DNA of 57,295 nt, the filler included, from Sanchytrium tribonematis (taxonomy: Eukaryota), in assembly GCA_018985235.1 (NCBI GenBank). It is 5 parts of 5 records of this genome, joined end to end, with 100 filler letters (N's around TTAATTAATTAA, not from the genome) between each part and the next. Parts side by side here need not be neighbours in the genome. Positions count along the whole stretch, not along the records: positions 11,540 to 22,963 come from JADGIG010000260.1; positions 23,064 to 34,417 come from JADGIG010000262.1; positions 34,518 to 45,863 come from JADGIG010000263.1; positions 45,964 to 57,295 come from JADGIG010000264.1; 1 more part is not named here. One strand, written 5' to 3'. A program made the translations under genes and the position numbers. A model generated the notes under the pieces. It worked only from the letters and a program-made list of their open reading frames with translations, did not search any database and was not told where the DNA came from. Positions within the stretch are counted from its first letter, which is position 1. Every line of letters starts with the position of its first letter. This document shows positions 12,772 to 51,090 of the stretch, in pieces.

Positions 12772-15216
12772 ATGTACGCGCTATTGATGTCATTTTTGGT
12801 TTCTGTCTCTGTAGATTGTCCAATAATCATTCAACTAGCTCTAGATATGGATATAAAGTACACAAACACCGAATATTTTGTGCAGTATGAGAAAGATTGT
12901 TGTTTGGGAGTTGGAGTCATTTGTGAGAATAACAGGGTTGTTGAGCTACATTGGGGATTTGCGCGTAATTATAACAAAGTAACATATCCATTAGTGACAT
13001 TTCCACCAAATCTACGCGTGTTGGACTTTCAGGGAAATTATAAATCAATGACCATTAAAACTTTACCAAAAACGCTTAAAGTATTGGATACCATTTCAAC
13101 TAGTGATATAAGATTCGAATTAAATGCTTTTCCCAATCTAGTTTACTTGGGTCTTGGTGATATTCCAACCGGTATGTCCCGACTACCAAGATTACCTGAT
13201 TCTTTGGAATATATTGATTTACGGTATTATGACGGTCTTGACATTCTGCCATTAAATAGTAGCAATCTAAAAGAACTTTATTGCTCTTATGAATCAGTAG
13301 ATCGACGAACATTCCCTAATTTACCAGAAACCATTGAAGTCGTGGAATTAGACAATGCGGATTTATATGGCCCTATTTCAACCAATTTTAAGAGTCTTAG
13401 AAAGTTGACGCTATTTGGAAGAGATTTGAGTGGTAATGTGACGATTTCTTCACCAAATATCACTCGTTTGTTTCTCTATCAAAATTCATTTGATAATTTG
13501 TTATTGACATACCCGGAACAAGTAACAGATTGTAATTTGGATGGCAACTATTTTGATGCTACGAATGTAGATGTTCTTGGGAGATTACCTAACAGTTGCC
13601 ATTATTTGCTCAAATCTCCAAAATCTCCGGATTGTGACAATGTTATAGAATTTGCAAAACAAACCAATATGCATTTGACAAATATCAACTTCTTCCGACA
13701 TCTGTCAACCATGCCCAATTGTTGTGATGATAGCTATGGAATCATAAAATGTAGCGGAAATCGTATTTCCGAATTGAGATTTTCATTTTCTTCTTCATAT
13801 TTTAATTTTCACTTGAATGGCACTATAAACACCACATTACTCCCGGATTCACTCTCCAAATTGTCATTAGATGGCAATCAATTTGCAGGTCCTTTTCCAA
13901 ATCTCACTAGTCTAGTAAATTTGAGAGAATTGAATTTAGAAAAGAATAAATTTGAGGGATCCATCATGAATTTGCTACCAGATAGCTTAACAACACTCTC
14001 AATTGGCTTCAATAAGCTTAATGGTACCATCCCAAATTTAAAATCACTGGGGCATTTAAGTGCATCCCAAAACTTTTTTACAAATGTAGAAAATAATTTG
14101 ATTGGAACTATGTTACAGAATATCGATATATCTTACAACCAAATTAAGGGTACTATAGACTTGTCCAATTATGTCCCTAGTCTGTTCAATGTTTTTTACT
14201 TTCAAAATAACTTCATTGATAAAATTATGGTAAATTCTGTGTTAACAAATTTCCAATGTGATATTTCATTCAACAATATTTATGATTTTACCAATTTAGC
14301 AAGTTGTACACATGATATACAAAGGTATACAAGCAAATCAGTGGTCCATTTAACCAGAGTGCTAAACTTCCTAGTTATATTCCAAGTCAAATCAAGTATT
14401 TTCAACTTAATGATGTCAATATTATTGGATATTTGCCACAATTATCAGAAGGATTGGAATCTTTAATTTTGACTGGATTGGATTTACAGGGCGGTATTCC
14501 AAATTTGCCTAGCACACTCAAGATATTGTCAATAACTTATTGTAATTTGACGGGAGTGATTCCACAATTGCCACCCAATTTACAGCAACTTAAATTAAAT
14601 GGAAATCAATTGAGTGGTCCGTTGCCAGATTTCCCTGATTCTTTGCAAGTAATTGTACTTGGTGATAAACATAATGAACGCAATTCATTCAATGATATTT
14701 TAAAAGTGAATCAACCAACCACTTTGGTGCTCGGAAATACCAATATTCGTGATTTACAAATAAGTGACACCAGTTTATTGATCAAATGTGATTTATCTTT
14801 TAGTTTACTACTCAATAGCACCAATATTGCCAATTACACCATGTGTGAAGGATTCTATTTGAGTGCAATTCCTGAAACAACGATGAAGTCCATCTCTACA
14901 ATATCAGAATCGTCAACTGAAGCCAGTAATTTTAATTTATTTAGTCATTACTCGTGTATTTTATAAAACACAATCCTTGAGTTTGTCTAATAGTCTATTA
15001 TTCTCTAAAGAATCTCCAATTGAAACTCAAACCACAATACGAGGAAACAATCAATTAATCAAATTCGATGCGCCTCGATTCAGCTTAAATTGGACATGGC
15101 AAGTCATTGCTAGACTTGTTCTCAATTTATTGGTCATCAATAACATTGTATTTAAACTTCCGCGACGCAAACGAGAAAACAAAAAATTTACCCATGATCC
15201 ACTAAGTGGCATGTAA
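12772..15216 (+). pseudogene. Multi-module LRR surface protein (signal, Cys-capped LRR modules, S/T stalk, C-terminal hydrophobic helix + basic tail); frameshift near 14330, 19-nt intron at 14926-14944
   Basis: Two DC..I...CC...C..NR..EL N-caps, LxxLxLxxNxFxG repeats; the third module starts in another frame without its cap; intron removal joins the 14433 and 14977 ORFs. Confidence 0.7.
14926..14944 (+). other. 19-nt spliceosomal intron GTAATTTTAATTTATTTAG
   Basis: Removal gives EA-I-ITRVFYKTQSLSLSN in frame with the 14977 ORF. Confidence 0.8.
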
Positions 15217-15249
15217 GAAACTTGTAATAAATGATCCTTATATTCAAAT

Positions 15250-20971: not shown

Positions 20972-21580
20972 TTATTGATTGAATACTTTGTTGAATTGTT
21001 TCTTAGCTTTCTCTTGAGTAGCAGCATCATTAATGTTGTCCTTGACTTGTTCTGCTTTGTTTTTCATTTCATCTTTTTGAAAACTCACTTTTCCTTTTGC
21101 TTTACCAATGGCATCTTGTGTTTGCTCACCGACAGTGGGTTCTTTGGCATATTGACCCTGTCCAGTTGCCCATTCGTATGTATCTTGGACTTTATCAGCT
21201 AATACGTTTTTGGAGTCTTCTGCAGATTGTTGGGCATTATTTGCTGTTTGTTGAGCAGATGCTTTGGCATCATCTACTTTTCTTTCGACTTTGTCAGATG
21301 TATTCTCATATTTGCCAGAACCAGTAGCCCATTCATACGTATCTTCAATTTTAGAAGTCAACGTGTTTGCAGCTTGCTCTCCTTCTTTTTGGGCATTATT
21401 GGTCATTTTAGTTCCCTGCTTTTGAGCATCGTGTGCTGCTTCTTGCGTACTATTCGCCATTTCTTGTGCTTTGCTTTCTGCTGTTGATTTGACGTCAGCT
21501 GCTTCATTTTCAGCCATTCCGACTAAATTCTTTGCGGTTTGAGTGACAGATTCCAAAATAGTTGGTTGATTTGAACTCAT
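20972..21580 (-). CDS. LEA-like hydrophilic stress protein, tandem paralog 1
   Basis: A/K/E/Q/T-rich amphipathic repeats, two DTYEWATG motifs; ATG at 21580 matches paralog start MSSN. Confidence 0.75.
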   Translation of the reverse strand: MSSNQPTILESVTQTAKNLVGMAENEAADVKSTAESKAQEMANSTQEAAHDAQKQGTKMTNNAQKEGEQAANTLTSKIEDTYEWATGSGKYENTSDKVERKVDDAKASAQQTANNAQQSAEDSKNVLADKVQDTYEWATGQGQYAKEPTVGEQTQDAIGKAKGKVSFQKDEMKNKAEQVKDNINDAATQEKAKKQFNKVFNQ

Positions 21581-21810
21581 TGATAATAAGTGGGAGTCGT
21601 CTCCTTTTATGCCATTTGAAAAATCCTTGGGTTTAAACACAGGTTTTGCTTCCAATCACATTCACTGATTTTCGGTAACATCAGATCTGTAATATCAATC
21701 GGACCATTCAACACTTTGCAAGTACGATGGTAATAATCGATGTCTCGATCTTCACAATTTGGTAATCTAGAGTGTTAATATGGTCATAATTCAAATAAAA
21801 ATCATTTTAT

Positions 21811-22518
21811 TTACGAAGTCATCTTTTCTACCTTCTTCTTTCCTTTTTCTTGTGTAGCACTATCGTTTATATTGTCTTTTACTTCATCTTTCTTGTTCTT
21901 CAACTCATCCTTCTTCTGGCTCATGGCTCCTTTAGCTTTTCCAACTAAATCTTGTCCTTGCTCAGCAACAGATGGCTCGTTGGAATATTTACCTTTTCCA
22001 GTAGCCCACTCATAAGTATCTTCAATCTTCTCAGCTAAGATACTTTTGTTGTGTTCTGCAGATCTCTCAGCGTTATTTGCAGTATCTTCAGCAGATTCTT
22101 TAACATCTTGAGCGGTTCCTTTTGCTGATCTTTTAACATCTTCAGCAGTAGATTGAGCAGATTCTTTCATGTTTTCAGCTTTCTTTGACGCCATTTCTCC
22201 AACAGATGGCTCATTAGAGTATTTTCCTTGTCCAGTAGCCCATTCGTAAGTATCTTCAACGGTGTGAGTCAAATTGTTAATTAATCCTTCACCCTTGCGT
22301 TGCGCATCATGAGCAGTTTCTTTAGTAGATTGTTTGGCATCATCTACCAAGTTATTGTTGGCTGTTTTGTTAGCAGCACGTTGAGATTTGTTTGCGACTT
22401 TGTTGGCTTGATATTCTCCCTCAGCTTTAATATCTTGCGCTTCATCACCAGCCATACCGACTAGATTCTTTGCGGTTTCTGTAACAGATGCGATAATACC
22501 TTGATTGTTTGAACTCAT
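21811..22518 (-). CDS. LEA-like hydrophilic stress protein, tandem paralog 2
   Basis: 11-mer-like repeats (AQDVKESAEDT), two DTYEWATG motifs. Confidence 0.75.
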   Translation of the reverse strand: MSSNNQGIIASVTETAKNLVGMAGDEAQDIKAEGEYQANKVANKSQRAANKTANNNLVDDAKQSTKETAHDAQRKGEGLINNLTHTVEDTYEWATGQGKYSNEPSVGEMASKKAENMKESAQSTAEDVKRSAKGTAQDVKESAEDTANNAERSAEHNKSILAEKIEDTYEWATGKGKYSNEPSVAEQGQDLVGKAKGAMSQKKDELKNKKDEVKDNINDSATQEKGKKKVEKMTS

Positions 22519-22712
22519 TGTTATTTGCGGGCATTTCTCGATTAAATAGCTACTTAAATGTGTCGACTATCTTTAGACTCGGATTTGATTTGTTGATAGA
22601 CCGCCATTGATGATTTGCTTTGATTTTAGATGGTCTAGAGCACTCAAATGCCAATCACGTGGATGGAAAGGAACATGTTGGGTTTAAAAATACCTTGTGA
22701 CACACGGGATAT

Positions 22713-23593: not shown

Positions 23594-24494
23594 ATGGAAT
23601 TAAATTTTGAGCCGTACTACGACGCTATTCACAGACCTTTTTTTGCGGTTGAAAATGCCGTTCTCGCAATTCTACCGTTTAAAATGAATGTTCCTTTTTT
23701 GTCTAAAAGCGAGCACTCAAAGCATATGCCTTTTATGAGCGTCGAAATTCCAATTATATTTTTGACACTATATTGTTGTATCTCATATTGGGGCACTAAA
23801 AGAACCACAAGGTTTGATCATCCTTTTTTCAAGGTTGCTGTAAATGTATATAACGCATCCTTGGTGGCGCTTAGCGCTTTCATGGTGTTAACGATATTAA
23901 TCGAAACAACAAGATTAAATTACTCTTGGTTTAACAATGGGATCGATGAAAGCAAGAGAGCTCTACCTCTAGCAAAGGCCTTATCAATATTCTATTTGAG
24001 CAAATTTCCAGAATTGCTAGACACTGTTATCATGGCTATCAAAGGAAACACTCGCCAGATTTCATTTTTGCATGTTTATCATCATACAAGCATTATCATT
24101 TTTTGGTACTGTATCATGTATTCTACGCCTTATAGCGAAGCTTACTTTACCGCTTTTCAAAATTCATTCATTCATACTTTGATGTACAGCTACTATTTGA
24201 TGACAAGCCTCAAAATCGGAACATACTTTACCAAAAAATTGAAAAAGTATATGACACAAATGCAAATGGTATCAATATCTTATATAGGCTCAATTCGTCA
24301 TGAACTGCTTTCAAACCTTTTATAACTTCTCGGCTTACTTAAAAGGTGAGGCTAAAGGTTATCCAATTGAACAGAATTTCTTCTTATTTATTTACATGAT
24401 TAGTTTGTTGTACCTATTCGGTAATTTTTACTCCAAGGACAGACAGAGAGAAAAGAAACAAGACGAAGGTGTCAAATTGGAGAAAGTCGAGTAA
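23594..24494 (+). CDS. ELO/GNS1 fatty acid elongase, 2 exons (23594-24268, 24288-24494), 293 aa
   Basis: FYLSKFPELLDT, FLHVYHH, NSFIHTLMYSYY; TQMQM|AQF restored by intron removal. Confidence 0.92.
24269..24287 (+). other. 19-nt intron GTATCAATATCTTATATAG
   Basis: Restores the conserved elongase TxxQxxQF motif. Confidence 0.92.
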
Positions 24495-24981: not shown

Positions 24982-26674
24982 TTAATCTTGATACTTTGGT
25001 CCAGCTGCAATTGTTTCTTTATCAGCTTGATCCTTATATAGATCGAAATTCTTAACAAATAAATCAGACAACTTTTTAACGGTTGACTGGTATTCTTCTT
25101 GAGGACCTTTCCACGCTTTGATTGGATTCAACACTTCTGCAGGAACACCATCACACTTCTTGGGAATGTGTAAATTGAAAACTGGATACGTTTCATAATC
25201 CTCTTTTTCAAGAGAACCATTATGGATGGCATCAATTATGGCTCGAGAGTATTTCAAAGAAATTCGTTTGCCAACTCCATATTTACCACCATTCCAACCC
25301 TAAATAAAAATAAGATACAGTGTTAATAAGCCATGCATTAGCTTTATGATGTTGCATCTTGTCAGCTAGCATACTTGCGTATTTTGTTGGGTGCCAAACT
25401 AAAAACGGTTGCCCAAAGCAAGCACTAAAAGTTGCAGTCGGTTCGGTAACACCTTCCTCAGTGCCGGCAATCTTAGCTGTATAGCCACTGATAAAGTGGT
25501 ACATGGCCTGCGCACTTGTCAACTTAGAAACGGGAGGTAAGACTCCAAAAGCGTCACAAGTTAACAAAATAATGTTCTGCGGATGACCTCCCAAACAAGG
25601 TATTTTGGCACCAGGGATGTAGTCAATTGGGTATGCGCAGCGAGTGTTTTCTGTCAATGCGACTGAGTCGTAGTCCACAACTCTAGTCTTAGGATCAAAT
25701 ACAACATTTTCCAAAACACTACCGAATTTAATTGCATTGTAAATTTCTGGTTCTTTTTCTCCACTCAAACCAACACATTTAGCATAGCATCCTCCTTCAA
25801 TGTTAAAAACGCCCTTTTCCGTCCAAACATGTTCATCATCACCAATCAATTTTCTATGCGGGTCGGCACTTAAAGTGGTTTTTCCAGTTCCACTCAAACC
25901 AAAAAAAAGACTCACATCCCCTTTCTGACCTTCATTTGCACTTGAGTGTAAACTTAATACCCCCGCTTTCGGCATCAAGTAATGCATAACTGTAAAGACG
26001 CCTTTCTTCATTTCACCAGCATATTGAGTTCCCAGAATGACCATTTCACCTCTTTTAAAATCAATGGAAACGCTAGTTGTGCTAGTCATTCCGGTCGTGT
26101 ATCTATTCGCAGGAAATTGGCCCGCATTAAAGACAGTAAAGTCAGGATGCCCGAAATTCTCAAGTTCTTCTTTCGATGGTCTGATCAACATATTGTGCAT
26201 AAATAATGCATGATAAGCTCGGCTGCAAACAATTCTGATTTTCAATCTGTAATCCGGATCCCATCCGGCGTATCCGTCAAAAACATAGAGTCTTTCTTTG
26301 GTGTTTAAATAGTCAATGGCTCTTTCACGATTAATCATAAAAGTGTTTTCACTAAGCTTGATATTGGGAGAATTTCCACCCCACCAAACATCACTTACAT
26401 TCTCAACTACCCGTTTATCTTTCGGGGAACGACCTGTTTTGCTTCCGCTAGAATTAATTAAAGCTCCAGCTTCACTGATAAATGCAGATTCATATTTCAA
26501 AGCATCTTCATACAAAACCGCAGGTGAAGCATTTCTTTTGATGTATTTGGAATAGTCGATTCCAGCCTCTTTATGTAATTGTTCCTTAATCTGATTTATA
26601 AAGTCCACATCGTCAACATCAGCAGGAATCATCGATAAACTCCGTTGCATTTTCGAAAGAGTTCTTCGTAACAT
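24982..26674 (-). CDS. PCK1: ATP-dependent phosphoenolpyruvate carboxykinase, 2 exons, 557 aa
   Basis: [56 protein letters not shown] restored by intron removal. Confidence 0.97.
25300..25318 (-). other. 19-nt intron GTATCTTATTTTTATTTAG
   Basis: Restores the conserved PEPCK segment [25 protein letters not shown]. Confidence 0.95.
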
Positions 26675-26749
26675 TGAGGAGAAGCTTGTACGAAAAAATA
26701 CAAATGTGATCCGTGCGCAATCATCGCTTTAGTTCGGGCAGAACATTTA

Positions 26750-27371
26750 TTAATGACTCAATTTTGACATGATATCCAGTCTAGACTTCCATTCTTGAGC
26801 AGGAAGGTCCACAAATTTTAATATATGTGCGAGCCTTTTCAAAAGCAATGTCGAATCTGTGGCAATTATTTCAACCTTTGAATCTATAAGAATAAATTCT
26901 ACTAGTTCCAAAATCTCAGGCAAATCATTTTTAGATTTGAAAGATCCTTTAGAACCAACTCTATCGATGCTCTTCGACGATGCAGCAGGAGAAATCTGAA
27001 TTAATTAAGTTTACCTTAGCAAGTATAGTGGAAGACTTTTGCTTATAGCCAGATGAAAAATTTACCACAGAAGGCTCATCTTGCGCAGACAAAGATGACT
27101 GGGATTTTGATAGCTCCAGTTTATCACTGGCATTCAAAATAAGTGAAGACCTAAACGATCGTCCTAATGTATTAACCTTGTTGGGTAGATTTGGTAAATC
27201 TTTTCCCTGAAAAACTAATAACCTCCCATGATCTGTCAAGGCTATCCATCTGGTCCTTTCTACAAAACTCATCCGTTCTTTTGCACTTCCAATAAATAAT
27301 ATTTCTTCACTCTCACGCAAAAATATTCGCGTTTGTGATGGGGATGTTGGTTTGATATTCATGGATTCCAT
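26750..27371 (-). CDS. Small PH-like protein family member (2 exons, 200 aa)
   Basis: ER...RxRWIALTDHGRLL resembles PDK1/Pkh-type PH strands; C-terminal DLPAQEW; paralogs at 34518 and 34953. Confidence 0.65.
26996..27014 (-). other. 19-nt intron GTAAACTTAATTAATTCAG
   Basis: Removal opens a frame to 26750 that is homologous to the paralog C-termini. Confidence 0.85.
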
Positions 27372-27531
27372 TTGTAAAAGTGGCGTTCAATTAAGTCGAA
27401 TTGATGACTGAGAGTTCAGCGTGTAAGCAGAACTTGGAAAATTTCATCAAGTATACTTTGAGACGATTTACAGTATTTTAAATCTACTCTTATGACTTGA
27501 ATCGAATTTGTTTTGGGTCCAAAAAATTTTG

Positions 27532-28833: not shown

Positions 28834-28837
28834 ACTC

Positions 28838-31800
28838 CTAACTATCTTTTAAGGTCAAAATAAAGATTCTCTGATAAGAAAGTTCTTCTTTTTCATGATT
28901 CGTTACAATAAGCATATGGTCGCAATTATTGTCAAGACATTGTATATGGCTTCCGCGAATAATTTGTTCCAAATCGCCAGTATTGACATCTCTTATTTCA
29001 ATAAAGGAATCATCAAAAGCTAAAATGAATGGCATGCAGAAAGCAAACTGTTTCGGTTGACCTTCCCAATATATTACAAAATCAGGTTTTGCTCGTCTCC
29101 CACTTCTGTCCACAAAAAATGCAAATTCTAAATAAGTAGGTTTTACCATTATAACAAAGTAAAAATAATCCATGAGCCCTGTACAGAGCGATTGGCTGCA
29201 GATTGTCTACCTTGATCGCAAATGCTAAATTTTCATCTTCTGGATCCAAAAGTCCCTGAGTCAACAAAGAGTCCAGGTCTACAATCTCGAAACCTTTAGT
29301 GCAGCCAACACATATTTTGGTCTTTAAAAAATGTATGGAGGTGGATTCGCTAGGTATGTAAAGCTCGCGATACAATTTGACTGCATCACCTGATGCCCTT
29401 TTAAAAAATTTTGATAAGCCAGCATTCTTTTTTTGCTCTGATAGTGGCTCATAAGCCTTAATCGTGCTGCTTAGCGAAGTCGACTTAACGACGCATACTA
29501 GAGGCTTTTGAGAAGATATTCCTGTTTTAAAAAATGAGACATGTGAGCTAATTTTTTTGCAGGAAAGTAAACTTGCAATTTCATTTAAAGATATAATTTC
29601 TTTGGGACAGCTATAAACAACCTTATCAACCATGAATATAATTTGGTCTTCAATGACCTCGACCTGAGACACAAATTCACATTCTATTATTTTTTTGATT
29701 GAAATTTTTTCTCTTTGACCATTAAAATCAGTCAAATCATTATTTATAAATTGAGCAGACGAATGTCTATTAATACTCGTATTTTGAATACTAAGCGTGG
29801 AAAGCATAGGTTCGCTTTTACTTCTATGCTGGAAAACAGCATAATTTGCATGATAAAGACCATCTTGGCAACCAAATATAATAGTGCCATCATTCATAAC
29901 AAACGCGCAATGAATTATAATAGATTGATCAGATATTAATTCCTTACTAGTGATCACATCAAGACATTGTTCCTGGACCAATTTCTGTTGCTTGATAATA
30001 GCTTCAAGCCATGCCTTTCGATCAGCAAAACTACTTGCTACCAATGTAATAGATTCAATTTTTTTCCCCAAGTATTCAATGACAAATTCAAAAGACTTGT
30101 TAAAATTAGTTAAGCTTTCGAGGCTCTGGATGCTATCTGCCTTATTGAGTGAATCGTGAGATAAATTGTGCGGAATAGAAACTTTTGATTGAAAAGGCTC
30201 TTGCGATTCTGATTCCGTACTTTGATCTTTTTTAACTCTTAAAACAAAATCATTTTCTTCTGGCGAATCTCCAATTATAAAATCATTTGACGATAGGAGC
30301 TCCTCGGAATCTTTTCGAATGCTGTCGGCCGCAGGTTCCTTGAAGGCTAAATCGGTTTGACTTTCGGTCATGCTTTCCTGCTGATGTATAATTTGTTGTA
30401 TTAGGTCATTGACATGGCTGTCTGAAACCTTATCCTGGCCACTTAATTCTAAGGTAGCTTCTTTTGAGTATTCATCCTTTTTGGGATTTTTCCTCTCTTC
30501 ATAGCTTTGTTTCAACGATTTTCTACCTGTCAGGGCTGACTCCTTTGCTTTCCGGTACAAACTATTCTTTTTTCGCTCTTGACTCAAGGAGCGCCGCCTC
30601 TCCTCGGTCATATTCTTCCTTGCTAGACCTAACCATCTACTAGCTCCAACAACACTTAAAATTCCGATCTTATGCTCGTCCAAAACATTTTCCAAACTAC
30701 TTATATGTATCAACTGTAACAATAATGGCCAACCACTTATTTTATACTTTTGCTTTTTCTTTCTCATTACAACCAGACAGTTTCCCAAGAGTAACAAATA
30801 TACACTGTCTATTTGATCCCCAATCTTACGCTTTAAAGGACCTTCTCTAAGAATCGTCTGCTCGGGACTAGCCAATTTTAAGGTGTATTTTTTGCGATCT
30901 TTGTTTAAAATCAGTTCATCATACATATTAAGCTTGACCCTGTTTTCGGATTCTCCACTAAGTTCATTGACTTTGGTCATAATATCTTTAATTATATCCA
31001 TACTTCTCTCGTACCAAATGCTCTCGGTTTTAAAATCAAAATGATTGTGAATATGTAAGTGGTATCCCGGTGGACAATCGAGATGCTCTGAAAAATCATC
31101 ATTTAAAACTTTTCGGATGATTGTGCTCATTAGTAAAGAATAGCGTCCTAATCTTGTTGTGGGTCTGTTTAACCAACTTTGAATTTCCAACCTACGCGAT
31201 AATTCATGCTTTTCACAGGCTTGAATGGTTAAAGGATTGGTAATTTTTAAATTATCATAGCGCTGTTTGCTGTAAGGTAATTTCTTGGCAATATCAGTGT
31301 AATATGGAAGTAAAAGTGGAAAGTATCTCTCAAATATGTCTGAAAAATGAATACCAGTGCCATTGGTAAACGCAGACGTGGTAGATTTTCCGAAGATATC
31401 AAATCGTTTAACTATACACAAATACATGTATAAATGAATGGACCTAATCATCCGTATTGTGTCGATTTCGAAAAGACTGTCTTTGCCTAAAGTAGAATGA
31501 AAAACCTCAAATGTGAATAAATCTTTTACGTAGTCTAGTTCAGTTGATAAAAGTTCATTAACAAAGACATTAGATGTGATCAGTTGGTATTGATTCAGGT
31601 TTTCATGAATTGTAATGACGTTTTCCTCGGTACATTCCATGTGAAACAAATCTTTATATCCTATATCATCAAGGATGCCCACATTAATAGGTATTTTAAA
31701 AGGACAGGTACATGAATAACACTGATATATCTGATTAAAATCGCCCTCAACGAATATAGATTTTGCAAGAATTGGCTTACGAGTACATGTGCAGCTCATG

Positions 31801-33126: not shown

Positions 33127-33132
33127 ATAAAT

Positions 33133-34517: not shown

Positions 34518-34871
34518 TCAACCAGAGCGAACGAGTGCCAAGACAGTGATTGCAGCTCAACCTGATGTTTATTTGAAAAATGACGTGAGACGTAAAAGTT
34601 TCATGGTCATTCAAAACGTATCTAAATGCTTATGTAGCCTGTTCAAGCACCTGTGATTAAACCAGATACAGTCAACGAGTCTGAATTAGAAGAAATGCCA
34701 GAATTAGAATTACTAGATTGTATTCAAATTGACAGGGATTGTGAAGTGGAAATGGATACGCGTTTGAATATGCTGATGATTTGGAGAGACTCACAACGGT
34801 TTAAATTATATGATTTGCCAGTTCAAGAGTGGTATGATCGTATCGTGATGGTCAGAAATTTGTCAGATTAA
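34518..34871 (+). CDS. PH-like family member, 5'-partial, with 20-nt intron
   Basis: DVYLKNDVRRKSFMVIQN|PVQ...LYDLPVQEWYDRI, paralogous to the 34953 gene. Confidence 0.7.
34618..34637 (+). other. 20-nt intron GTATCTAAATGCTTATGTAG
   Basis: Same VIQN|P phase-0 position as the 19-nt intron in the tandem paralog. Confidence 0.85.
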
Positions 34872-34952: not shown

Positions 34953-35535
34953 ATGAGAAAAAATCAATTATTACTCATTCCATCTTCCCCAGAAACTCTC
35001 AAAAAATATTTAAATCCAAATGAAAATGTGGTTTATTTTGGACATGCATCAGAACGCGTTGGATTACTTTCTAGACCACGGTATATATCCATAACAGATG
35101 AGGGAAGACTACTCATACTCCAAAAAGCATCAACTAAAAAAGATCCCCTTGATTTAAGCACATTATCATTTCAATCCAGTCATTCCGGATTTTCTAGTCA
35201 AAAATCAACTCCAAAAATAGAATCAAAATCAAATCATAAACCAGAATCAGTGGTAGATGGTCAAGATAATGTTTATTTAACCACTGATTCGCGTTTAAAA
35301 AGTTTTCTAGTCATTCAAAATGTCATTTATATTCATGTAGCCCTTTAAAAAAGAAGAAGAGGTACCAGAATTGGATTTATTAAGTGTTTTGATAGTAGAT
35401 GTACTATTTAAAGTGAGTATATCTAGTAAAAATGAATTGTGGATTGAACGTGAAAATGAGAGACATCGATTATATGATTTACCTGTTCAAGAATGGTTTG
35501 ATCGATTAATGCTGATGAAAGAGTTGGCGGAATAA
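34953..35535 (+). CDS. PH-like family member (2 exons, 187 aa)
   Basis: ERVGLLSRPRYISITDEGRLL; after the intron PFKKEEEVPELDLL...LYDLPVQEWFDRL*. Confidence 0.75.
35322..35340 (+). other. 19-nt intron GTCATTTATATTCATGTAG
   Basis: Removal joins VIQN to the conserved C-terminal exon. Confidence 0.88.
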
Positions 35536-36039: not shown

Positions 36040-36078
36040 CATGTGACTCAATCTTTTTAATTTCATTGGTTAAAAGAA

Positions 36079-37219: not shown

Positions 37220-40200
37220 ATGTTTTTGTATTTGATTCATGTAATTGCAATATTTACTTTTCACATAAAAAATGCAAGTGAAAACATCATTGAAATAAGG
37301 GAGATTTCAAATGAGAATAAAGAGAGATCATGGTGCTTGTGGAATTACAATTATGATATGACACAAGGTACATCCAACAGTGCAAATATTAATGACAAGT
37401 GTCGCACGCACGCTAGAGAGAATGTATTTATTGAGGGGACCGTGTCCCTTTATAGGGAATCCGAGACATTTCATTGGCCTTTATTAAGCCACCCCGATGC
37501 TGTAAACTCATTGATCATCGATGGTAGCTATACCAGATCGATAAGCCATCTTCAATGGTCATTGGGACATTCTGCCCACCTAAAGAATGTCCTCTCCTCA
37601 ATTTATGATGCAGACCAATGATGCAGACCATGGAATTAATCGACGAATATTAAGTCGTTCGGGAACTCCATGTCTATCCAATGTAATTGTATTGTTTAAG
37701 TGAAAATGGGTTATTTTAAATGGTCCTTCTTGTTGTGGATCCCATTTGCTGGTTAAATCGCGTTCTGTCTTTCTAATAAATACTAAGTCATTGACTTTAA
37801 ATAAATGTGCAATTCGATTTTTATTTAATCTTGCAACATCTTTGGTAACTTGATTTGGTGTGGTTTTATGTATGTGTTCTAGTGAATTGTACAATGGCAT
37901 TAGCATATTTAAATTGAAAATAACTTCAGAAGGCGATTTACCTAACGAAGAGTGGAATGCGGCGCGTAAGGAGAATGCAATTGATTGGGAATTCCTTGCC
38001 CAATCATTGACACCGGTACAACGAATCATATTGTTGATTGTACCATGCATTCTCTCGCATATGCTATTTGCTGTGGCCATATATGTGGTTGTAAAAGTGT
38101 GGCGAATGCCGTATGAAGCGCACAATTCCGAAATCTCTTTTGATTTCAAATTTGCGCCTTGATCAGAAAGCATCACAAGCGGTCTGGGATAGCGATTAAG
38201 CCACCAGTCATCAATCGCTTGCGATACTGTTGGGGCTAATTGGTTTTGTAGCGGAATCAATTCACACCACCGTGAAGAAATGTCGATGATAGTTAATAAA
38301 TATTTAAATTCTTCATATTCTGGGTCATCTGAGGACGGAAATGGTCCTTGTAAATCAACAGCAATAATTTCAAATGGTGAAATGTTATTATGAATGTCTG
38401 TTGGTTTTAGTTTACCATATTGAAGTGCATTTTTCTTTGATTTTTTACAAATCAAGCACTTGTTTACATGAGATTTGATTTGTTGTCTCATTTTTGGCCA
38501 GAAACAGATTGAATTCAATATGTTATTGGTTCTTATTTCCCCTGGGTGTAAATATGATTCATGTACCCAAGAAATGACCTTATTTTGAAGTGAATGTGGT
38601 ATATAAATTTGTTTATTGTGGAGCAACACTTTTGTGCCTTGTACTTGCTCCAATGTGAGATATTTAAAAGTGTTAAGCTGTTTATTTGTCAGCTTAGAAA
38701 GGTCATTAGTGGCAATGCACGTAATGAAAAGAGATAAAAGAGCATCTTTCTCTTGATGTTCTTTTATAATTTCAATTGAAAAAGGAAAATCGATATTTGA
38801 AATTTCCAACATCTCTGGATGTGGTTCTGACTCATAATATCGGCTTAAAAGATCAGCAACTGGATTATCAGTGCCTTTAATGTGTTTAAATTCGGGATTG
38901 TATTCCTGAATTCGAGCAATATATCGTTGTAAAGTCATTCCTTTGATGGAATTGAGATATTTTATATTTACATTATCACAATAGATAATAATTCTGTGGC
39001 CAAAGAGCATGGTATGTAGATGTTCACAAATTAATTTAATGGCCAAGATTTCTTTCTCACAATGGATTGACGAATTTGGGATTCGCTTAATTTGCGAGAA
39101 TAGAAATAAATTGGTTGAGGAGTGTCATTTTTAATTTGAAAAACGACTCCACCAATTCCGTAATCCGAAGCATCCGTCATAATGTGGAATGCTTGTTGAA
39201 AGTCAGGATAAACGAGAAGGGATGCTTTAGCCAGTGATTCAGTGGCTTGAATCAATGCCGCTTCTTCAATTGTAGTCCACTGGAATTTCACTTTCTCAGA
39301 GGTTAATCTGGTCAGTGGTTGCAAAACGGATGAGAGTTGAGGTATAAATCGGCGAAAGAAATTCAGCGCGCCTAGTACACTGCGTACTTGTCGTCTCGTT
39401 TTTGGACGTGGCAATTTTAGTAAATCGTCTACTTTTGCCGGATCAGGTTGCAATCCTTCAGAATTTAACATAAAGCCGAGATATTTGATTTGTTTTTTTG
39501 CTATTTCGCATTTCTTATTTAATTTAATGCAATTATCTGACAGAATTTGAAATACCTGTCGTAAATGAATTGAATGTTCATCCATATTGCGGGACATGAC
39601 TAAAATATCGTCAATATAAATTCGTACAAATGATAAATGACCTAATAAATGGTGCATCATGGATTGGAATGCCTCAGGTGCGCATGATACACCCATTGGA
39701 AGGCGCAGGAACTCATAAGTTCCAAATGGTAATGAAAATCCGGTAAATTGTCTAGATTCTGGATCCAGCATCACATGAAAAAATCCAGATTTTACGTCTA
39801 GAATAGAAAATATCATACCTGGCACAATGCCCATGAGCAGGTCGTCAATTGATGGGATAGGAAAATTGGTACGTGCAATGTACCTGTTGAGAGTTGCACT
39901 AAAATCAACTACTAATCTACCAGTGCCATCCTTTTTAGGGACAACAAAGTCAGGTGAAGTAAAGATGCCTATTGATTTTGCGATAATATTTTGTTGAAGT
40001 AAATCATCCACTTGTTTTCTTAGAGATCCCATCATTGATTCTAGAATTCTGTAATATTTCCTTCTAAAAGGAGGTGGAGATTTATGAAAGTAAAATTTAT
40101 ACTGGAAATTGCGAACGACACCAGGACTATCTTGAAAAATATCTTCAAATTCTTTGATTAATTTATCCAAATCAGTGTGAATTTCTTCAATTGCAATTGA

Positions 40201-41581
40201 TTGGTCAATGAATATTTGTGCTCATTACAAGCCAAGATACTCTTTTTAAAATCAATTACAAAGTTGAATTCTTTTAATAAATCAACTCCAAGTATGCATT
40301 TGTGAGAAATGCTGTCTGCAATATAAAATTTTACAACTTTAGAAATTGAAGGTGAGATTGCAGTGAGTTGGATAGGTACATCTACTGTACCAAGAATATT
40401 AAATGATGTGCCAGAAGCAGTATAGAACTGGCTATCTGAAATAGTTGGCGTAATGCCAAGATAATTAATAAAATCTTTACTCATAAAACTGGCACTTGCA
40501 CCAGTGTCAACCAACGCATTTGTTGGGTTTCCAGAAATTAAAACAGGCATTGAAGGACGTCCATCAATTACATTTAGAGTGTATCTTGATTTGGACGCAA
40601 GATATCCCTGTTTTAATTCAGGGTCTTCTGTGTGCCCCTTTTTTAAACAGTCAGCAAACGTACAAACAGCACCAGGTGTATGATATGCCGTTTTTGTAGA
40701 CGCATATTTGTTGATGGAATTTTGGGGAATTTTTGGATGCTCTTAAATTTTTTATTTTTTCCAAATTCCTTAAAGGGACGTTTAGTCGGTTGATACATCA
40801 ATTTGTCATTGTATTCAAATTGTTCAATATTAAATTCGGCTCTTTTTGCACGCTTAAAGGCTTCTTCAATATTGGCACAATCCTCAGAAAGAACTTCTTT
40901 CTGTAATTCCGGGCGCAATCCTCTTATAAAGGCAAATAATTTATCTTTTTCTGTGATTTTATCTGATTCCGATCCAGATATATCACAAAGATGAACTTTG
41001 GAGTCAAAAATCAATTTATATTGGGCAGTTGATTGTTGTTTGCCCTGACGGTATGCTCTCAATTCATTGTAATATTGAGCATATGGGTCTTCGCCCACAA
41101 ATTGAAGCTGTAGGCGTTTCATAGCACTTGCTAAGGTTTCTTGAGGGCCAAATGAAATATAACTCATGAGAGCAGCCCCGTTTAAAGCTCGTTGTAAATT
41201 CCACAGTTTGTCAGCCTCTGTCCATTTGGCTTCTTCAGCAATAAATTCGAATTGCTTCTTGAAAAATACAAAATGTTCGTGAGCCTTTATTAAGCCACCC
41301 CGATGCTGTAAACTCATTGATCATCGATGGTAGCTATACCAGATCGATAAGCCATCTTCGATGGTCTTTGGGACAACAAGGAATTGTTTGATAAACTAAA
41401 AGATTATTCAAGAATGAATCTGCTAATAGAGCTTTCTAATATTCGCAACACTGCCAATTATGGCTGTGATTTTCTATTAAGTGAAATATTTGATGTTGGT
41501 CAGTTTGTTGCTACATTACAGTTATGCGGTAATTTGTTCTCAGATGCACCCAGATATCGTAAATTCAATAAAATGGACTGA
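37220..41581 (+). pseudogene. Small secreted protein gene split by Gypsy insertion (37220-37399 + 41381-41581, 126 aa when repaired)
   Basis: ...SANINDK|ELFDKLKDY... joins in frame after removing the element plus one ACAAG copy. Confidence 0.75.
37400..41375 (-). mobile_element. Degenerate Ty3/Gypsy LTR retrotransposon (gag-PR-RT-RH-INT), 5-bp TSD ACAAG
   Basis: DTGA protease, YIDD RT, TDAS RNase H, HHCC + DDE + GPF integrase; 3' LTR 37400-37569 (170 bp) after PPT; 5' LTR truncated to 41283-41375 (93 bp, 2 mismatches); at least 3 frameshifts; TSD 37395-37399 and 41376-41380. Confidence 0.93.
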
Positions 41582-42380: not shown

Positions 42381-42528
42381 GGTCATTTGAATTCTATTGT
42401 TTAAGAATCAGCGTGATCAGGGGATTCTTGTGATTGTTTTGAGAGCTGTGATTGGTGAATAGAGATGAAAGGAGTCATTTGTACAACCCTAAAATGTATT
42501 TAGAGAGAGAAGGCACACACAGAAGGAG

Positions 42529-42861
42529 ATGTTGATGATTTTGATGGCAATGACCATAGCTTTTGATGCAAAGATTATGAAAGGGGATATCGAATTTATT
42601 ACATTGATTGATAAAACACCTTTAGAAAGCAAATTAGAAAATAAAAGTTGGGAATGTTCTGCCGTTGTGAATCGAAGACCTTTTGTTGTAGAGAATTGTG
42701 ATGTAAAAATGTCATATAAACAAGTTATAGAATTGATATTGGAGTACAAGTCTGAAACAAATCGCGTTTTAATTGGCACTGAAGTTATTTCATATGAAAC
42801 ATATAAAGATGTTTTGAAAGCTATGAACGAACAAAATGAATTAGATCTGGGATATTGGTAA
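42529..42861 (+). CDS. Small secreted WxC-family protein
   Basis: Signal; DKTP..LENKSWEC..ENC; shared promoter. Confidence 0.7.
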   Translation: MLMILMAMTIAFDAKIMKGDIEFITLIDKTPLESKLENKSWECSAVVNRRPFVVENCDVKMSYKQVIELILEYKSETNRVLIGTEVISYETYKDVLKAMNEQNELDLGYW

Positions 42862-46657: not shown

Positions 46658-49010
46658 TGTAGATTTTAGTGACAAGAATGAGCTAAAGGTAAGGTATTTA
46701 TTAATATCGAGTCTCCTTAAATAGATGGTGCAAGTAATTGCGTGTCACCATCTCTCCAATAAACAATTCTATCATTCCAATCAATTGTGTCGACGTAATT
46801 AACGACATTATCGTCGTCGTTAATGTCATCCATGACATCCTGCCCCTCAGTGGAATCTTCATAGTATGGCATAATTCTTCGAATATTCACAGATTCCACT
46901 TCTCCATTTTCTTTTTCAATTTTAAACACATTTCGACTTTTCAATTCAATAATTTTATAAGGTCCCAACCATGACTTAGAGAATTTGGTCTTTTTAACTG
47001 GATTTTTTAATAAAACCAAATTTCCAACATTGTAATTGTGATCAATTCTGTTTGCATTTTCTCGATTTAAATTGTACAATTTTAATTTCTCATTATCAAC
47101 GTTTCTCTTAGTTATTGGCAAAGAGGGTAAAACCATATCCATTCCAAACACTGCATTTCCTGGCGTGGTGCCTATACTTGAATGGTAACTAGATCTCATA
47201 ATCCAACTAATGGCTGGTAAATGTAGATGCCAATTAGTCAAACCCTTTGTCCTTAAATGTTCATTTACAACTCCATGACTTCTTTCACAAATTGAGTTGC
47301 ATTGGGGATTGTAGCTTGTGGTGTACATGTGGGTTATCCCAAAACTTTCTAACAATTCTTCAAATTCATTTCCTAAAAAGTTGGTACCTTGATCTGTGAG
47401 GACAAACTGCGGGCGAGGGAATTTGCAAATCCAATTTTGATCAAACACTTTAGCAACAGTTTTCCCAGTAGTCTCTTTAAGCGCGATGAGTTCTACTAGT
47501 CTACTTTTAATGTCTATAATGCTCAAAATATACTTGTATTCATTTCCATCTGCATCTTCAATGTCTTCTTCTGTCAAATCTTTATCACTGATAATTGGAC
47601 CAATGATATCACAAGCAACTACTTGGAAATTGCCGATATTTTTATCAATTTCCCCTAATTCTAGTTTCCCATATTTCTTTTTGTTCATCTTAAACACTTG
47701 ACAAGTGTGGCACAATCTCACAAAACTCTTTACATCATCTTGTAATCTATTCCAATGCACATAATTACTAATTGTATTGTACATCCTTTGATATCCGGGA
47801 TGGCCGAATTCATTGTGGGTCCATTCAAGAATCTTGTTTTGCATTACTTTTGGAATAATCATTTTGTAGCTATCTTTCTTGCACAATACTTCGAAACCTT
47901 CAATATCCCTTAGTGTAATGGATTTTGTGCGTAGATACTCTGCATCTCTCAAAAGAAGTGGTGCAAGTTCTGGATCATTGTGTTGTGATTGTTTTATTTC
48001 TTTTGGGGACAATGGAAATAAATCAACAGAAAGCACAGTTGGTGTAATTTGTGCAAAATTCAATCTTGATAAATAGTCTGCGACCATATTGCTAGCACCG
48101 GGAAAGTGGTAGACAATGGGTTGGAAATCACAAATTTCTAAATAATATCTTTGCAACTTGTGACTTGCAGAATTCTCCAAGTACGACAAGTTAAGTGAGT
48201 CAGTAAATATAAATAATTCACATCCAAACAACAGTTTTCGCAAATGCTGCAACACTGAAATCATGGCTAATGCTTCCTTGTGGACTACTGTGTATCTAAT
48301 TTGTGTTGCTGTAAACTTTCTACTATAAAAATAAATTGGACATGGTCCATCTGGATATTTGTATTGCACAATGACGGCGCCTATGCCATAGTCAGAGGCA
48401 TCACAATAAATGTAAAACGGAGATTCAAAATCTGGGTAATACAACAGTGTTTTCTTAATCAAAATATTCTTTACAACAGTTAAACGCTTCTCATGTTCTT
48501 CCTTCCAATCAAATTTGATTCCTTTTTTTGTTAATGCGGACAGTGGTGCTAGTAATGAAGCACAATTTGGAATAAAACGTTGAAAAAAATTGATACTGCC
48601 CAATATACTTCTTAATTCTTTTACACAAGTTGGTGGTGGTAGCATCATCAGAACTGAAATCTTCTCTGGGTTGGCTTTAATGCCTTCTGCTGTCAAGATA
48701 AATCCAAGGTACTTCAATGAATTTGTTGCAAATTGGCTTTTCTTAAAATTGATTCGAACATTGTGAGCAAATAAAATATCCATCACTGTCTTCAAATGCT
48801 TTAAATGTTGTTCAGCAGATTCGGACAGAATCAAAATATCATCCAAGTAAATCAACACAAAGTCTAAATGTCCAATACAGATTGTATCCTTTGGGACAAA
48901 AGACAAAAATTTCCCCTTGCAGATTTCAACATTTGCATCATGATAAGAATGATAGAGATGATCTGTTTCCCACGTGCGTAATAAATTTATTTTTTGCAAC
49001 ATCTTTCACA

Positions 49011-51090
49011 ATGGAACCCAATTCAACTGATATTCTACCTCAAACAGATGAATTGAGTGTCTTTCTACCACCAAATCAACAAATGCTTCAACAGGCACAA
49101 CATAAAGGATATACACGGCTTGAAATTGAAGATTTTATGAAGAATTTATTTGATACCAAATTGACAGAGATGACATTCAAATCGCACGAAGTACCACGTA
49201 AAAAGGGTGGAACATATTTGTATTTAGTGGGCCATTGTAGGGGATTCACTATAATTCCAAGTCAGGAAAATAACAAATGCACCAAAAGATATTGCAAAAT
49301 GGAAATGAGGGCAACACGCAGTCCAGATAACCATTTATTTTATTTTAATTTAAAGGATTTTCAGAATAATGATCTTTTCCATAATCATTCTTTTTCAAAT
49401 TATTCTGTCATTTTCAAAAAGAAAACACTCCAAGCAGACTATCCACAAGTCCTCAAATTTATTGTTGATTCAAAATCTGCTTATTTAACTGTAAAACCCA
49501 TTTCACGCATGATCAATTTGACATTCAATATTGTTTGTTCTAGGAATTTAATAAACAATATTAAAGCAGACTACTACAATTTGGAAGAGTTACTTGTTGC
49601 AAGTCATGAAGTAATTGATTATGAGATGGTTTACACAAATAATGGACCAAATGAGCAGAATATTCAAAACCTGAAATTTCTATTTATTTACTTTAAAAAG
49701 GCATCAGATACTATCAATATTCCATCCCCGGTAGTATTTGATTCTAATTTCAACATTACTGGGATATCCGGATTAAAACTTATTATTTTTAGTGCCAAAA
49801 ATAACATGGGCAAGGCGGTTAATTTAGCAGTGGTTTACATCTATTCTGAGAATATGGACTACATCAAAGATGTTCTAGACATGTTCATTCAATATTATCC
49901 CCATCCCATCGTGTCATTCATGACAGATAGGGACAGTGCATATCTTGCCACTTTAAAAACGCATTTCCCCCATATCCCTCATATGTACTGCATTTGGCAT
50001 ATCATGCAGAATATTCGTATCCAGTGGACATCTATTAGCCAAATACATCGTGAAAGGATTGCCAATTACATCCAATCCATTGCAAATATCAGAATGCAAG
50101 AAGTACTTTCAATTCATTTAGAATGCCCAACAAACCATTGAATATTTAGCAAAGTATATCAATAAACACAATCTACAATCCGTGCAGCAGTGCGTGATTA
50201 ATCTAATCCAGAATAAGGAGAAATGGGCATTTTCATTCTACGCCAATCACATTGCCACATTGGGAATTAAAAGCAGCCAGATTGGCGAATCCATGAATGC
50301 ACTAGTTAAAGCATTAACAGATAGAAGATGTGGACTAGTCAGATCAATTAAAGTCGCATTATTGATCTCAAATGAACAACTTACCCAATTTGACCAAAAA
50401 CTTGCTGAATTACGGCATTTTTATGGGATTGAGGATATTCTATCCCCATATGCTAGCAGATTATTTGATGAGCAATATGACATGGTTAGAAAGTGTCATA
50501 TTGACATGTTTGATTTGTTCGATAATAATAATGTAGTGATTGGGCATAAATTTAATGTCACATACACCAATAGCCTGCGAAATCATATGACAGTCTATCG
50601 TAAGTATCACAGAGTCATGCAGGACTCAGAATGGTGTCATTTGGATGAATCACAAGGCAATCAAGACATCCAAGAAACATTTGTTGTAAAATATACAAAT
50701 GGCTACTTAGAATGCCAATGCAAGCATCAACTAGTATTCCACATGCCTTGCAAACACATATTAGCTGTATACGGAGAGCATTTTGACTCCAAAACACGCC
50801 AATTAATCCCAAATATATGGTATTTCCAAAAATCCTCTTTAGAGACATCCTTGATCATTAGAAACAATCCAGTGGTTCAAGAGGATGTGCTAATAGCAGA
50901 GGATGCCTCCAAAGCTGTTGATTTGGATGTAAAGAAGGTGTATGATCCTGTAGCAACACGAAAGACACTCATCAAGTACGGATACGAATTGAAAGGATTT
51001 TTGGATCGACACAATGTATGTCATTTGGATTTGGAGCGTACATTCAGTGATTTCATGGTGATAATGCATAGACGACACGGCAATAAATGA
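49011..51090 (+). CDS. MULE transposase with SWIM zinc finger, 2 exons, 686 aa
   Basis: FAR1-like C..C..HNH region, FDSNFN, FMTDRD, CIWH, ESMN, CQC...PCKH; intron 50103-50121. Confidence 0.88.
50103..50121 (+). other. 19-nt intron GTACTTTCAATTCATTTAG in transposase
   Basis: Joins the 48882 and 50182 ORFs exactly in frame; fits host consensus. Confidence 0.88.

What the first reader, a model, noticed from the sequence alone, without database searches (positions are those of the whole stretch)
14926..50121. Ultra-short 19-nt spliceosomal introns with a fixed branch-point geometry in a fungus-like genome
Seen: eight GT-AG introns on four separate contigs (14926-14944, 24269-24287, 25300-25318, 26996-27014, 29128-29146, 34618-34637, 35322-35340, 50103-50121). 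Seven are 19 nt and one is 20 nt. Each removes a frame break, and three restore well-known conserved motifs (PEPCK WLINT|GW, elongase QM|AQF, CNH CYN|EF). All eight end Y-T-H-A-T-N-Y-A-G, with A at -6, T at -5 and T at -8 invariant. No longer intron was needed for any gene. Established: typical fungal introns are several times longer; introns of 15-21 nt are known from heterotrich ciliates such as Stentor (branch A six nt from the 3' end) and chlorarachniophyte nucleomorphs. Inference: an independent opisthokont origin of a ruler-like miniature intron, with only about 13 nt from 5' splice site to branch A, implying a remodelled spliceosome. I cannot confirm whether this has already been described for this lineage.
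Basis: partly seen in the sequence, partly recalled or inferred. Interest (0 to 1): 0.9.

Follow-up and report, generated by a model that had tools for sequence, protein, structure and literature searches.

The report
19-base introns in sanchytrid fungi
Eight genes in this stretch of a sanchytrid, a little-known fungus that parasitises algae, are broken by 19-20-base inserts with splice-site ends that related species carry at the same spots; they are likely true introns, and would be among the shortest known in any eukaryote and shorter than any I found reported for fungi.

Summary
Observation confirmed: all eight GT-AG inserts (seven of 19 nt, one of 20 nt) are at the stated coordinates and each restores a frame. 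A motif-blind scan peaks at 19 nt (8 ORF-joining candidates; 0-3 at the other 48 lengths). Removal joins Pfam positions exactly (ELO 182/183, PEPCK 410/411, CNH 188/190). A tree places the window among named Amoeboradix and Sanchytrium proteins (Sanchytriomycota). Public proteins of relatives run off at the same codons: 15 of 17 read-through tails fit GT..TNAYNYAG at 19, 20 or 21 nt (background 2.4%), so assembly error is very unlikely. No RNA was available: splicing and the branch A at -6 are inferred. The core spliceosome is annotated in Amoeboradix (13 of 15 factors sought); only Slu7 and Prp18 were not found, the pair Stentor also lacks and yeast does not need at short branch-to-AG distance. 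Tiny introns are known from Stentor, mikrocytids, nucleomorphs, myxozoans, dicyemids and microsporidia, so this is a new independent case, not a new kind. I found no paper on sanchytrid introns; the published sanchytrid proteomes were predicted without an intron model and are truncated there. The scan's earlier notes hold no sanchytrid finding.

The parts
14926..14944 (+). 19-nt intron, phase 1, near the end of an LRR gene (12772-15216) that also has an unexplained frame break near 14316-14466
   Evidence: GT-AG, top motif score; joined frame open and ends in a hydrophobic stretch plus basic tail; no homologue test
24269..24287 (+). 19-nt intron, phase 0, in a fatty-acid elongase gene (exons 23594-24268 and 24288-24494)
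   Evidence: Pfam ELO 182/183; uninterrupted Amoeboradix P0130 aligns 226/227; 7 of 8 sanchytrid-clade relatives run off at the same codon
25300..25318 (-). 19-nt intron, phase 0, in the PEP carboxykinase gene (exons 26674-25319 and 25299-24982)
   Evidence: Pfam PEPCK_ATP 410/411; 116 of 116 outside homologues that reach the motif continue with GW; relatives P0001/P0122 decode to 19 nt, P0002 fits 21 nt
26996..27014 (-). 19-nt intron, phase 0, in a sanchytrid PH-like family gene (exons 27371-27015 and 26995-26750)
   Evidence: both exons align to uninterrupted Amoeboradix P0216; weakest motif of the eight
29128..29146 (-). 19-nt intron, phase 1, in a RhoGEF-PH-CNH (ROM-type) gene (exons 32027-29147 and 29127-28838)
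   Evidence: Pfam CNH 188/190 with the split codon between
34618..34637 (+). 20-nt intron, phase 0, in a PH-like family paralogue cut by the contig start (second exon 34638-34871)
   Evidence: same codon as 35322 but a different frame correction; second exon aligns to P0216, E 2.6e-13
35322..35340 (+). 19-nt intron, phase 0, GTC donor, in the tandem PH-like paralogue (exons 34953-35321 and 35341-35535)
   Evidence: both exons align to P0216; 8 relatives run off at the matching place
50103..50121 (+). 19-nt probable intron, phase 0, in a MULE-SWIM transposase gene (exons 49011-50102 and 50122-51090)
   Evidence: MULE domain before, weak SWIM match after; motif outranks all 487 controls; no relative found

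Best explanation
The eight 19-20-nt GT-AG inserts are likely U2-type spliceosomal introns of a sanchytrid fungus, predicted to branch at the A six bases from the 3' end, and the same 19-21-nt design likely holds across Sanchytriomycota. Shown: the sequences, their exact fit to protein families, the placement of the organism, and run-off at the same codons in both named genera and in environmental relatives. Inferred mechanism: a weak donor (GTA, little else) is paired with a branch motif T-N-A-Y fused directly to N-Y-A-G, with no room for a pyrimidine tract; U2 pairs at TNAY, a lariat loop of 14-16 nt forms, and the AG five bases after the branch A is taken as acceptor by proximity. Extra length (20, 21 nt) sits on the 5' side, so the fixed measure is branch-to-AG and the floor is set by the smallest loop the active site tolerates. 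With so short a branch-to-AG distance Slu7 and Prp18 would be unnecessary, as in yeast in vitro, and may have been lost, as reported for Stentor. The introns are sparse (8 in 57 kb) and old: positions are shared between genera and between paralogues, and uninterrupted copies (P0130, P0216) point to occasional exact loss.
For: Motif-blind length peak at 19 nt; exact Pfam joins in 3 of 3 genes where one domain spans the junction; uninterrupted homologues join the two exons residue to residue; frame test picks 19 or 20 nt with 0 of 100 shuffles reaching the score for P0131, P0132, P0134, P0136, P0001 and P0122; 15 of 17 relatives' tails fit the motif at 19 (10), 20 (2) or 21 (3) nt against 2.4% of 5022 control GT starts; named carriers are Amoeboradix gromovi (P0131) and Sanchytrium tribonematis (P0136, P0217, P0223); clade support 100/99; 13 of 15 spliceosome factors annotated in Amoeboradix, Slu7 and Prp18 not; Stentor table lists both as not found; yeast needs neither below 7 nt.
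Against: No RNA, so no spliced junction or lariat was seen. The 17 tails come from only three intron positions and related organisms, so they are not 17 independent events; PH-family junctions were placed by eye and their frame test was inconclusive (4, 23, 34 and 3 of 40 shuffles reached the score); P0135 was not significant (15 of 100); P0133 and P0219 stop too early to decode. 57 kb cannot exclude longer introns elsewhere. Absence of Slu7/Prp18 rests on an eggNOG table that annotates about half of the proteins, on identifiers I recalled, and on a file cut before most of the Sanchytrium sheet. About 13 of the excess GTA..YAG 19-mers are not accounted for by the seven introns.
Confidence: 0.92

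Rival explanations
1. The frame breaks are sequencing, amplification or assembly errors, or decay of pseudogenes, and the GT-AG ends are chance in AT-rich DNA.
For: The window has signs of imperfect assembly (an inverted 260-nt duplicate at the ends of contig 1; an unexplained break in the LRR gene; frameshifted retroelements). For 14926 and 50103 no relative could be tested.
Against: An indel error changes 1-2 bases and would leave six extra codons; the families need exactly 19 removed. Other species and independent assemblies break at the same codons with different interior sequence and with 19, 20 or 21 nt. Contigs of run X1 show no indel or joint at the four introns of contig 3, including a contig with 12 other differences (X1 may be the window's own source). 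Retroelement breaks lack the motif.
Confidence: 0.02
2. The inserts are real introns but only the short tail of a broader length distribution, with an ordinary spliceosome; the narrow range is an effect of small sample and of looking for short frame breaks.
For: Only 8 introns in 57 kb and three positions in relatives were seen; my scans stopped at 60 nt; introns that are multiples of three without a stop, or that lie in untranslated regions, escape the method; most spliceosome factors are present.
Against: No intron of another length was needed in the conserved genes of the window; at three homologous positions none of 15 decodable relatives falls outside 19-21 nt; genes are tightly packed.
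Confidence: 0.12
3. The inserts are removed or bypassed by something other than the spliceosome: ribosomal frameshifting or hopping, RNA editing, or developmental DNA excision.
For: No RNA evidence excludes it; most 19-mers carry no in-frame stop.
Against: The frame correction differs (19, 20, 21 nt) at one homologous site, and the three 21-nt cases end in an in-frame stop; ends are GT and YAG with a branch-like motif rather than slippery runs or TA-bounded repeats; a spliceosome is annotated in the lineage.
Confidence: 0.03

Closest known systems
Heterotrich ciliate introns (Stentor coeruleus, 15-16 nt; PMC9505925, passages read)
   Same: GTA donor, U-rich interior, putative branch A at position 10 of 15 or 11 of 16, that is -6 from the end; Slu7 and Prp18 not found while Prp16, Prp17 and Prp22 are kept.
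   Different: Here 19-21 nt (loop 3-5 nt longer), a clearer T-N-A-Y branch motif, sparse introns, a small parasitic fungal genome; unrelated lineage.
Chlorarachniophyte nucleomorph introns (18-21 nt; as summarised in PMC10245619 section 7)
   Same: Nearly the same length range.
   Different: Nucleomorph is an intron-rich relic organelle genome (more than 800 introns in about 300 genes); here a nuclear genome with few introns and a largely complete spliceosome annotation.
Mikrocytid introns (16-17 nt; PMC10245619, section 7 read)
   Same: Parasite, very narrow length range, conserved intron sequence.
   Different: Rhizarian; only 17-19 spliceosomal proteins identified and no introns in metabolic genes, whereas here PEPCK and an elongase carry introns and 13 of 15 factors sought are annotated.
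Myxobolid myxozoan and Dicyema introns (median 22-27 nt; PMC13644364, main text read)
   Same: Opisthokont parasites with introns under 30 nt, donor reduced to GTa, U2AF kept.
   Different: There the weak A stretch moves away from the AG as introns lengthen; here the A stays at -6. Sanchytrid lengths seen are shorter (19 nt modal) and narrower.
Microsporidian and Rozella short introns
   Same: Short introns in reduced relatives of fungi.
   Different: Microsporidian introns of about 23 nt and longer (recalled) and Rozella 26-30 nt (unchecked scan notes) are longer; sanchytrids are sister to Blastocladiomycota (PMC8371127 section 6), so the shortening is independent.
Branch site fused to the 3' splice site in Trichomonas (PMC12316389, passages read)
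   Same: Fixed branch-to-AG spacing without a pyrimidine tract.
   Different: A 12-nt strict motif and lengths of 23-196 nt there.

Membership tests
U2-type spliceosomal intron | GT..YAG ends on the coding strand | tested here: met
   8 of 8
U2-type spliceosomal intron | Exact removal restores the conserved protein | tested here: met
   Exact for ELO, PEPCK, CNH; both exons match one uninterrupted homologue for the three PH genes; not testable by homology for the LRR and MULE genes
U2-type spliceosomal intron | Branch motif of the YUNAY type (consensus recalled) upstream of the AG | tested here: met
   T at -8, A at -6, Y at -5 in 8 of 8; A at -6 forced by the peptide in 4 of 5 distinct relatives whose length came from the motif-blind frame test and allowed in the fifth; use as branch not shown
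U2-type spliceosomal intron | Position kept in orthologues and paralogues while interior sequence drifts | tested here: met
   Three positions across Amoeboradix, Sanchytrium and environmental relatives
U2-type spliceosomal intron | Absent from mature mRNA; excised as a lariat | not testable with these tools
   No RNA holder listed
U2-type spliceosomal intron | Major spliceosome encoded (proteins and U1/U2/U4/U5/U6) | tested here: inconclusive
   13 of 15 proteins annotated for Amoeboradix in the supplement of PMC8371127; snRNAs not testable, none in the window, no genome held
U12-type (minor) intron | Strict RTATCCTT donor and TCCTTAAC branch motif (recalled) | tested here: not met
   Donor columns 4-8 are mixed
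Ultra-short fixed-length intron systems (Stentor/mikrocytid type) | Lengths within 2-4 adjacent values under about 22 nt | tested here: met
   19-20 nt in 8 of 8 in the window, 19-21 nt in 15 of 15 decodable relatives; small sample
Ultra-short fixed-length intron systems (Stentor/mikrocytid type) | All or nearly all introns of the genome are of this size | not testable with these tools
   Whole genome not held
Ultra-short fixed-length intron systems (Stentor/mikrocytid type) | Loss of step II factors Slu7/Prp18 as in Stentor | tested here: inconclusive
   No hit by name, KO or KOG id in the held part of the annotation file; annotation covers about half the proteome
Introner (transposon-derived intron family) | Many near-identical introns at species-specific new positions, with target duplications | tested here: not met
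   Interiors differ, no repeat at the flanks on inspection, no self-match among them, positions shared across genera

The most novel reading that the evidence does not exclude
A whole fungal phylum, Sanchytriomycota, has only 19-21-nt introns, the shortest typical introns in opisthokonts, and has lost Slu7 and Prp18 in parallel with Stentor: a repeatable rule in which fusing the branch A five bases from the AG lets the spliceosome shed its exon-ligation adaptors and then locks intron architecture in place.
Probability: 0.45. Interest if true: 0.86.

Novelty: new member of a known kind. Interest (0 to 1): 0.72.

Why it matters
It adds an independent origin of near-minimal introns, in true-fungal ancestry next to Blastocladiomycota, at a length below the 22-nt median just reported as the animal record. 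It gives a second lineage with the Stentor geometry (A at -6) and, possibly, the same loss of Slu7/Prp18, which makes the long-standing question of the spliceosome's lower size limit testable by comparison and in yeast minigenes. It also has a practical effect: public sanchytrid protein sets are cut short at these introns (for example PEPCK 463 instead of about 557 residues), so gene counts, lineage-specific gene lists and gene-loss calls for the phylum need re-annotation with a minimum intron length under 20.

Tried and rejected
Whole-genome histogram and snRNA search: no genome held. RNA: no RNA holder listed; not evidence either way. Reads on the transposase contig were not obtained, so 50103 has no read-level check. 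Pattern scan of JGI metagenomes for a PEPCK junction with a 15-39-nt intron gave 2 loci, both chance matches inside bacterial penicillin-binding-protein ORFs by their look. Transposase search found only the window's own protein, 1 of 2080 candidates. Rfam: 0 matches in the window. Frame test on four PH-family tails: inconclusive. PEPCK tree gives the window and three ENA relatives a 100/100 clade but does not resolve its sister group; placement rests on the elongase tree and named EukProt proteins. Four of 15 hits (P0220, P0222, P0228, P0229) were dropped as unrelated repeat proteins; P0216 was used as uninterrupted reference and P0215, P0227 are the window's own. A 17-nt GT-AG candidate at 14325-14341 would restore the first LRR break but lacks T at -8 and Y at -5; I read the break as a deletion scar or misassembly, unproven. 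Candidates at the retroelement frameshifts (39052, 40221, 54932-54976) lack the motif and were rejected. The motif-based count (6 against 0.68) is circular, since the motif came from these introns, and is not used as proof. Literature searches for sanchytrid introns or splicing listed no paper on the subject; one search was too broad to be informative; subscription papers are not searched.
Full report
1. What is in the window. The 57,295 bases are five contigs of about 11.3-11.4 kb joined by N44-12nt-N44 spacers, G+C about 33%. All eight coordinates give GT..AG on the coding strand, seven of 19 nt and one of 20 nt, on contigs 2-5. The 3' columns are G, A, Y, N, T, A, H, T, Y from -1 to -9 in 8 of 8; the donor is GTA in 7 of 8 and mixed after that. 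Each removal gives a joined frame with no internal stop; six are phase 0 and two phase 1.

2. More than chance. A scan blind to the motif asked, for every GT..YAG pair of 12-60 nt on both strands, whether removal joins at least 50 open codons upstream to at least 50 gained downstream: 8 at 19 nt (the seven claimed and one at 41503 without motif), 0-3 at each of the other 48 lengths. The 20-nt intron misses that threshold because its contig starts 33 codons upstream. GTA..YAG pairs number 44 at 19 nt against 23.8 (maximum 36) in 40 dinucleotide shuffles; 15 nt also passed its maximum by one, and the seven introns explain only part of the 19-nt excess. In leave-one-out scoring 7 of 8 outrank all 487 other 19/20-nt GT-AG candidates; 26996 ranks below 24.

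3. The fit to proteins is exact. Scanned as separate, unjoined exons, elongase ends at Pfam ELO position 182 and resumes at 183; PEPCK at 410 and 411; the CNH domain at 188 and 190 with the split codon between. Uninterrupted homologues join residue to residue: P0123 453/454 and P0004 456/457 for PEPCK, P0130 226/227 for elongase; 116 of the 116 other PEPCK hits that reach the motif (of 118 examined) go on with GW. The genes at 26996, 34618 and 35322 are paralogues of one PH-like family; the latter two are broken after the same codon, by 20 and 19 nt, and each length gives the right frame; all three second exons align to the C-terminus of one uninterrupted protein, P0216 (E 1e-10 to 3e-13). The MULE transposase (50103) and the LRR gene (14926) have no such test: the transposase has no relative in the database, and the LRR gene has a second break near 14316-14466 that no motif-bearing intron explains.

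4. The organism. PEPCK is 89-91% identical to unnamed ENA proteins and at most 79% to named Blastocladiomycota, aphelid and chytrid proteins. The elongase search returned eight close relatives (59-71%); three are named EukProt proteins of Amoeboradix gromovi (P0130, P0131) and Sanchytrium tribonematis (P0136). A tree of 19 of the 85 hits, cut at the junction, puts the window in a 9-member clade with them at 100/99. PH-family relatives include Amoeboradix (P0216) and Sanchytrium (P0217, P0223). The window is therefore a sanchytrid; I did not fix the species. Sanchytrids are algal parasites with 10.5-11.2 Mb genomes of about 35% G+C, sister to Blastocladiomycota (PMC8371127, section 6 read).

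5. Relatives carry the same introns. Proteins predicted without an intron model read through an intron and so record its sequence in their tails. All 17 relatives' tails examined (7 elongase, 2 PEPCK, 8 PH family) begin with Val at the homologous junction. A motif-blind frame test, which asks which intron length lets the shifted tail resemble an uninterrupted homologue, picked 19 nt for P0131, P0134, P0136, P0001 and P0122 (same tail as P0001) and 20 nt for P0132, each with 0 of 100 shuffles reaching the score; P0135 picked 19 nt but 15 of 100 shuffles reached it. A motif test (GT, T at -8, A at -6, Y at -5, YAG) is met at 19 nt by 10, at 20 nt by 2 and at 21 nt by 3 of the 17, and at no other length from 15 to 30 that is fully seen; P0133 and P0219 stop too early; 2.4% of 5022 GT starts in the window pass. 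The tails represent three intron positions, so they are not independent trials, the PH junctions were placed by eye, and a frame test on four PH tails was inconclusive. Uninterrupted copies exist (P0130, P0216 from genomic contigs; P0123 may be intron loss or cDNA). Contigs of run X1 cover the four introns of contig 3 with no indel or joint, and none of 27 substitutions falls in them; X1 may be the window's own source.

6. How it most likely works. Shown: sequence, frame, exact fit, conservation. Inferred: U2-type splicing with the branch A at -6. T-N-A-Y matches the degenerate YUNAY branch consensus (recalled) and is followed at once by N-Y-A-G, leaving no pyrimidine tract. The branch A is base 14, 15 or 16 of a 19-, 20- or 21-mer, so added length goes into the loop and the branch-to-AG distance is the fixed part, as in Stentor (A at 10 of 15, 11 of 16; PMC9505925, passages) and unlike myxozoans, where the A stretch moves away from the AG in longer introns (PMC13644364). 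The eggNOG table for Amoeboradix in the supplement of PMC8371127 lists Prp8, SF3B1, the small and large U2AF subunits, SF1/BBP, U1-70K, Isy1, Cwc25, Yju2/CCDC94, Cwc22, Prp17 and Prp16/Prp22-type helicases, 13 of the 15 factors I sought; Slu7 and Prp18 gave no hit by name, KO or KOG identifier (identifiers recalled). The file is cut early in the Sanchytrium sheet, one supplementary file could not be read, and only about half the proteins are annotated, so this is a lead. It is a pointed one: in yeast the need for Slu7, Prp18 and Prp22 in the second step depends on the branch-to-3' distance and vanishes below 7 nt (PMC3392075, passages), and the Stentor table lists Slu7 and Prp18 as not found while Prp16, Prp17 and Prp22 are present.

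7. Known systems. Ultra-short introns are described in heterotrich ciliates (15-16 nt), mikrocytids (16-17), chlorarachniophyte nucleomorphs (18-21) (PMC10245619, passages and section 7), myxobolids (median 22-27) and Dicyema, with microsporidia named as a further exception under 30 nt (PMC13644364, parts 1-2 of 3 read), and Trichomonas (from 23 nt; PMC12316389, passages). So the kind is known and other opisthokont origins exist. For sanchytrids I found nothing: searches listed no paper on their introns or splicing; the genome paper has the word intron once, in a reference, and predicted ORFs from contigs with TransDecoder (section 18); the TPPP paper likewise (PMC10459994, term search only). 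The public records of the window's own genes end in read-through tails (P0121, P0128, P0214, P0215, P0227). The library lacks most subscription journals, so a brief earlier mention cannot be excluded. The scan's earlier notes hold nothing on this genome and no finding with the word sanchytrid.

8. Verdict. Real feature; likely spliceosomal introns (0.92); new member of a known kind, apparently unreported for a fungal phylum; the lineage-wide length limit and the Slu7/Prp18 loss are open and directly testable. Interest 0.72.

Noticed in passing
window 14316-14466: First frame break in the LRR gene; the third repeat module seems to lack its cysteine-containing cap, which suggests a deletion or misassembly; a 17-nt GT-AG at 14325-14341 would also restore the frame but lacks the motif.
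   Followed up: partly
window, six complete intron-bearing genes: The introns lie at 53-91% of the coding length, none in the 5' half, the reverse of the 5' bias usual in intron-poor fungi (recalled); small sample and short first exons are harder to see.
   Followed up: partly
window 50103-50121: A host-type 19-nt intron inside a MULE-SWIM transposase gene; no relative found, so it may be an old or domesticated copy.
   Followed up: partly
window 449-706 and 11181-11439: A 260-nt inverted duplicate (95% identical) at the two ends of contig 1; may be an amplification chimera or a real paralogue.
   Followed up: no
window 26750-27371, 34519-35535; P0216-P0226: A small protein family with a weak PH_3 match, found only in sanchytrids and unnamed relatives, often in tandem; the fold looks split by a long low-complexity insert that holds the intron.
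   Followed up: partly
P0002/P0129, P0001/P0224, P0122/P0233/P0225: Equal longest-contig lengths (12783, 9271, 21027) suggest that elongase, PEPCK and the PH-like gene are neighbours in environmental relatives as in the window; several unnamed ENA records appear to be uncultured sanchytrids, one type with 21-nt introns.
   Followed up: no
PMC8371127 supplement file 4, Amoeboradix rows 1135-1136: SF1/BBP is annotated as two adjacent ORFs on one contig, as expected if a tiny intron splits it.
   Followed up: no
window 37598-41320, 46717-52512, 52764-57227: Frameshifted Ty3/Gypsy-type elements and a LINE-like element with endonuclease, reverse transcriptase and RNase H; their breaks lack the intron motif.
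   Followed up: partly
window 36065-36165 and 42451-42551; 6159-6251 and 7235-7327; 37477-37569 and 41283-41375: Short conserved repeats of 93-101 nt; the first pair lies upstream of small ORFs that begin with a hydrophobic, signal-like stretch, of which the window has many.
   Followed up: no
window 20972-22566: Two tandem hydrophilic repeat proteins with no Pfam match, similar in look to stress-protective LEA-type proteins (label recalled).
   Followed up: no
window 25923-32070 and 32600-34417: Contigs of run X1 differ from the window at 12 and 6 places, which points to two haplotypes in the material.
   Followed up: no
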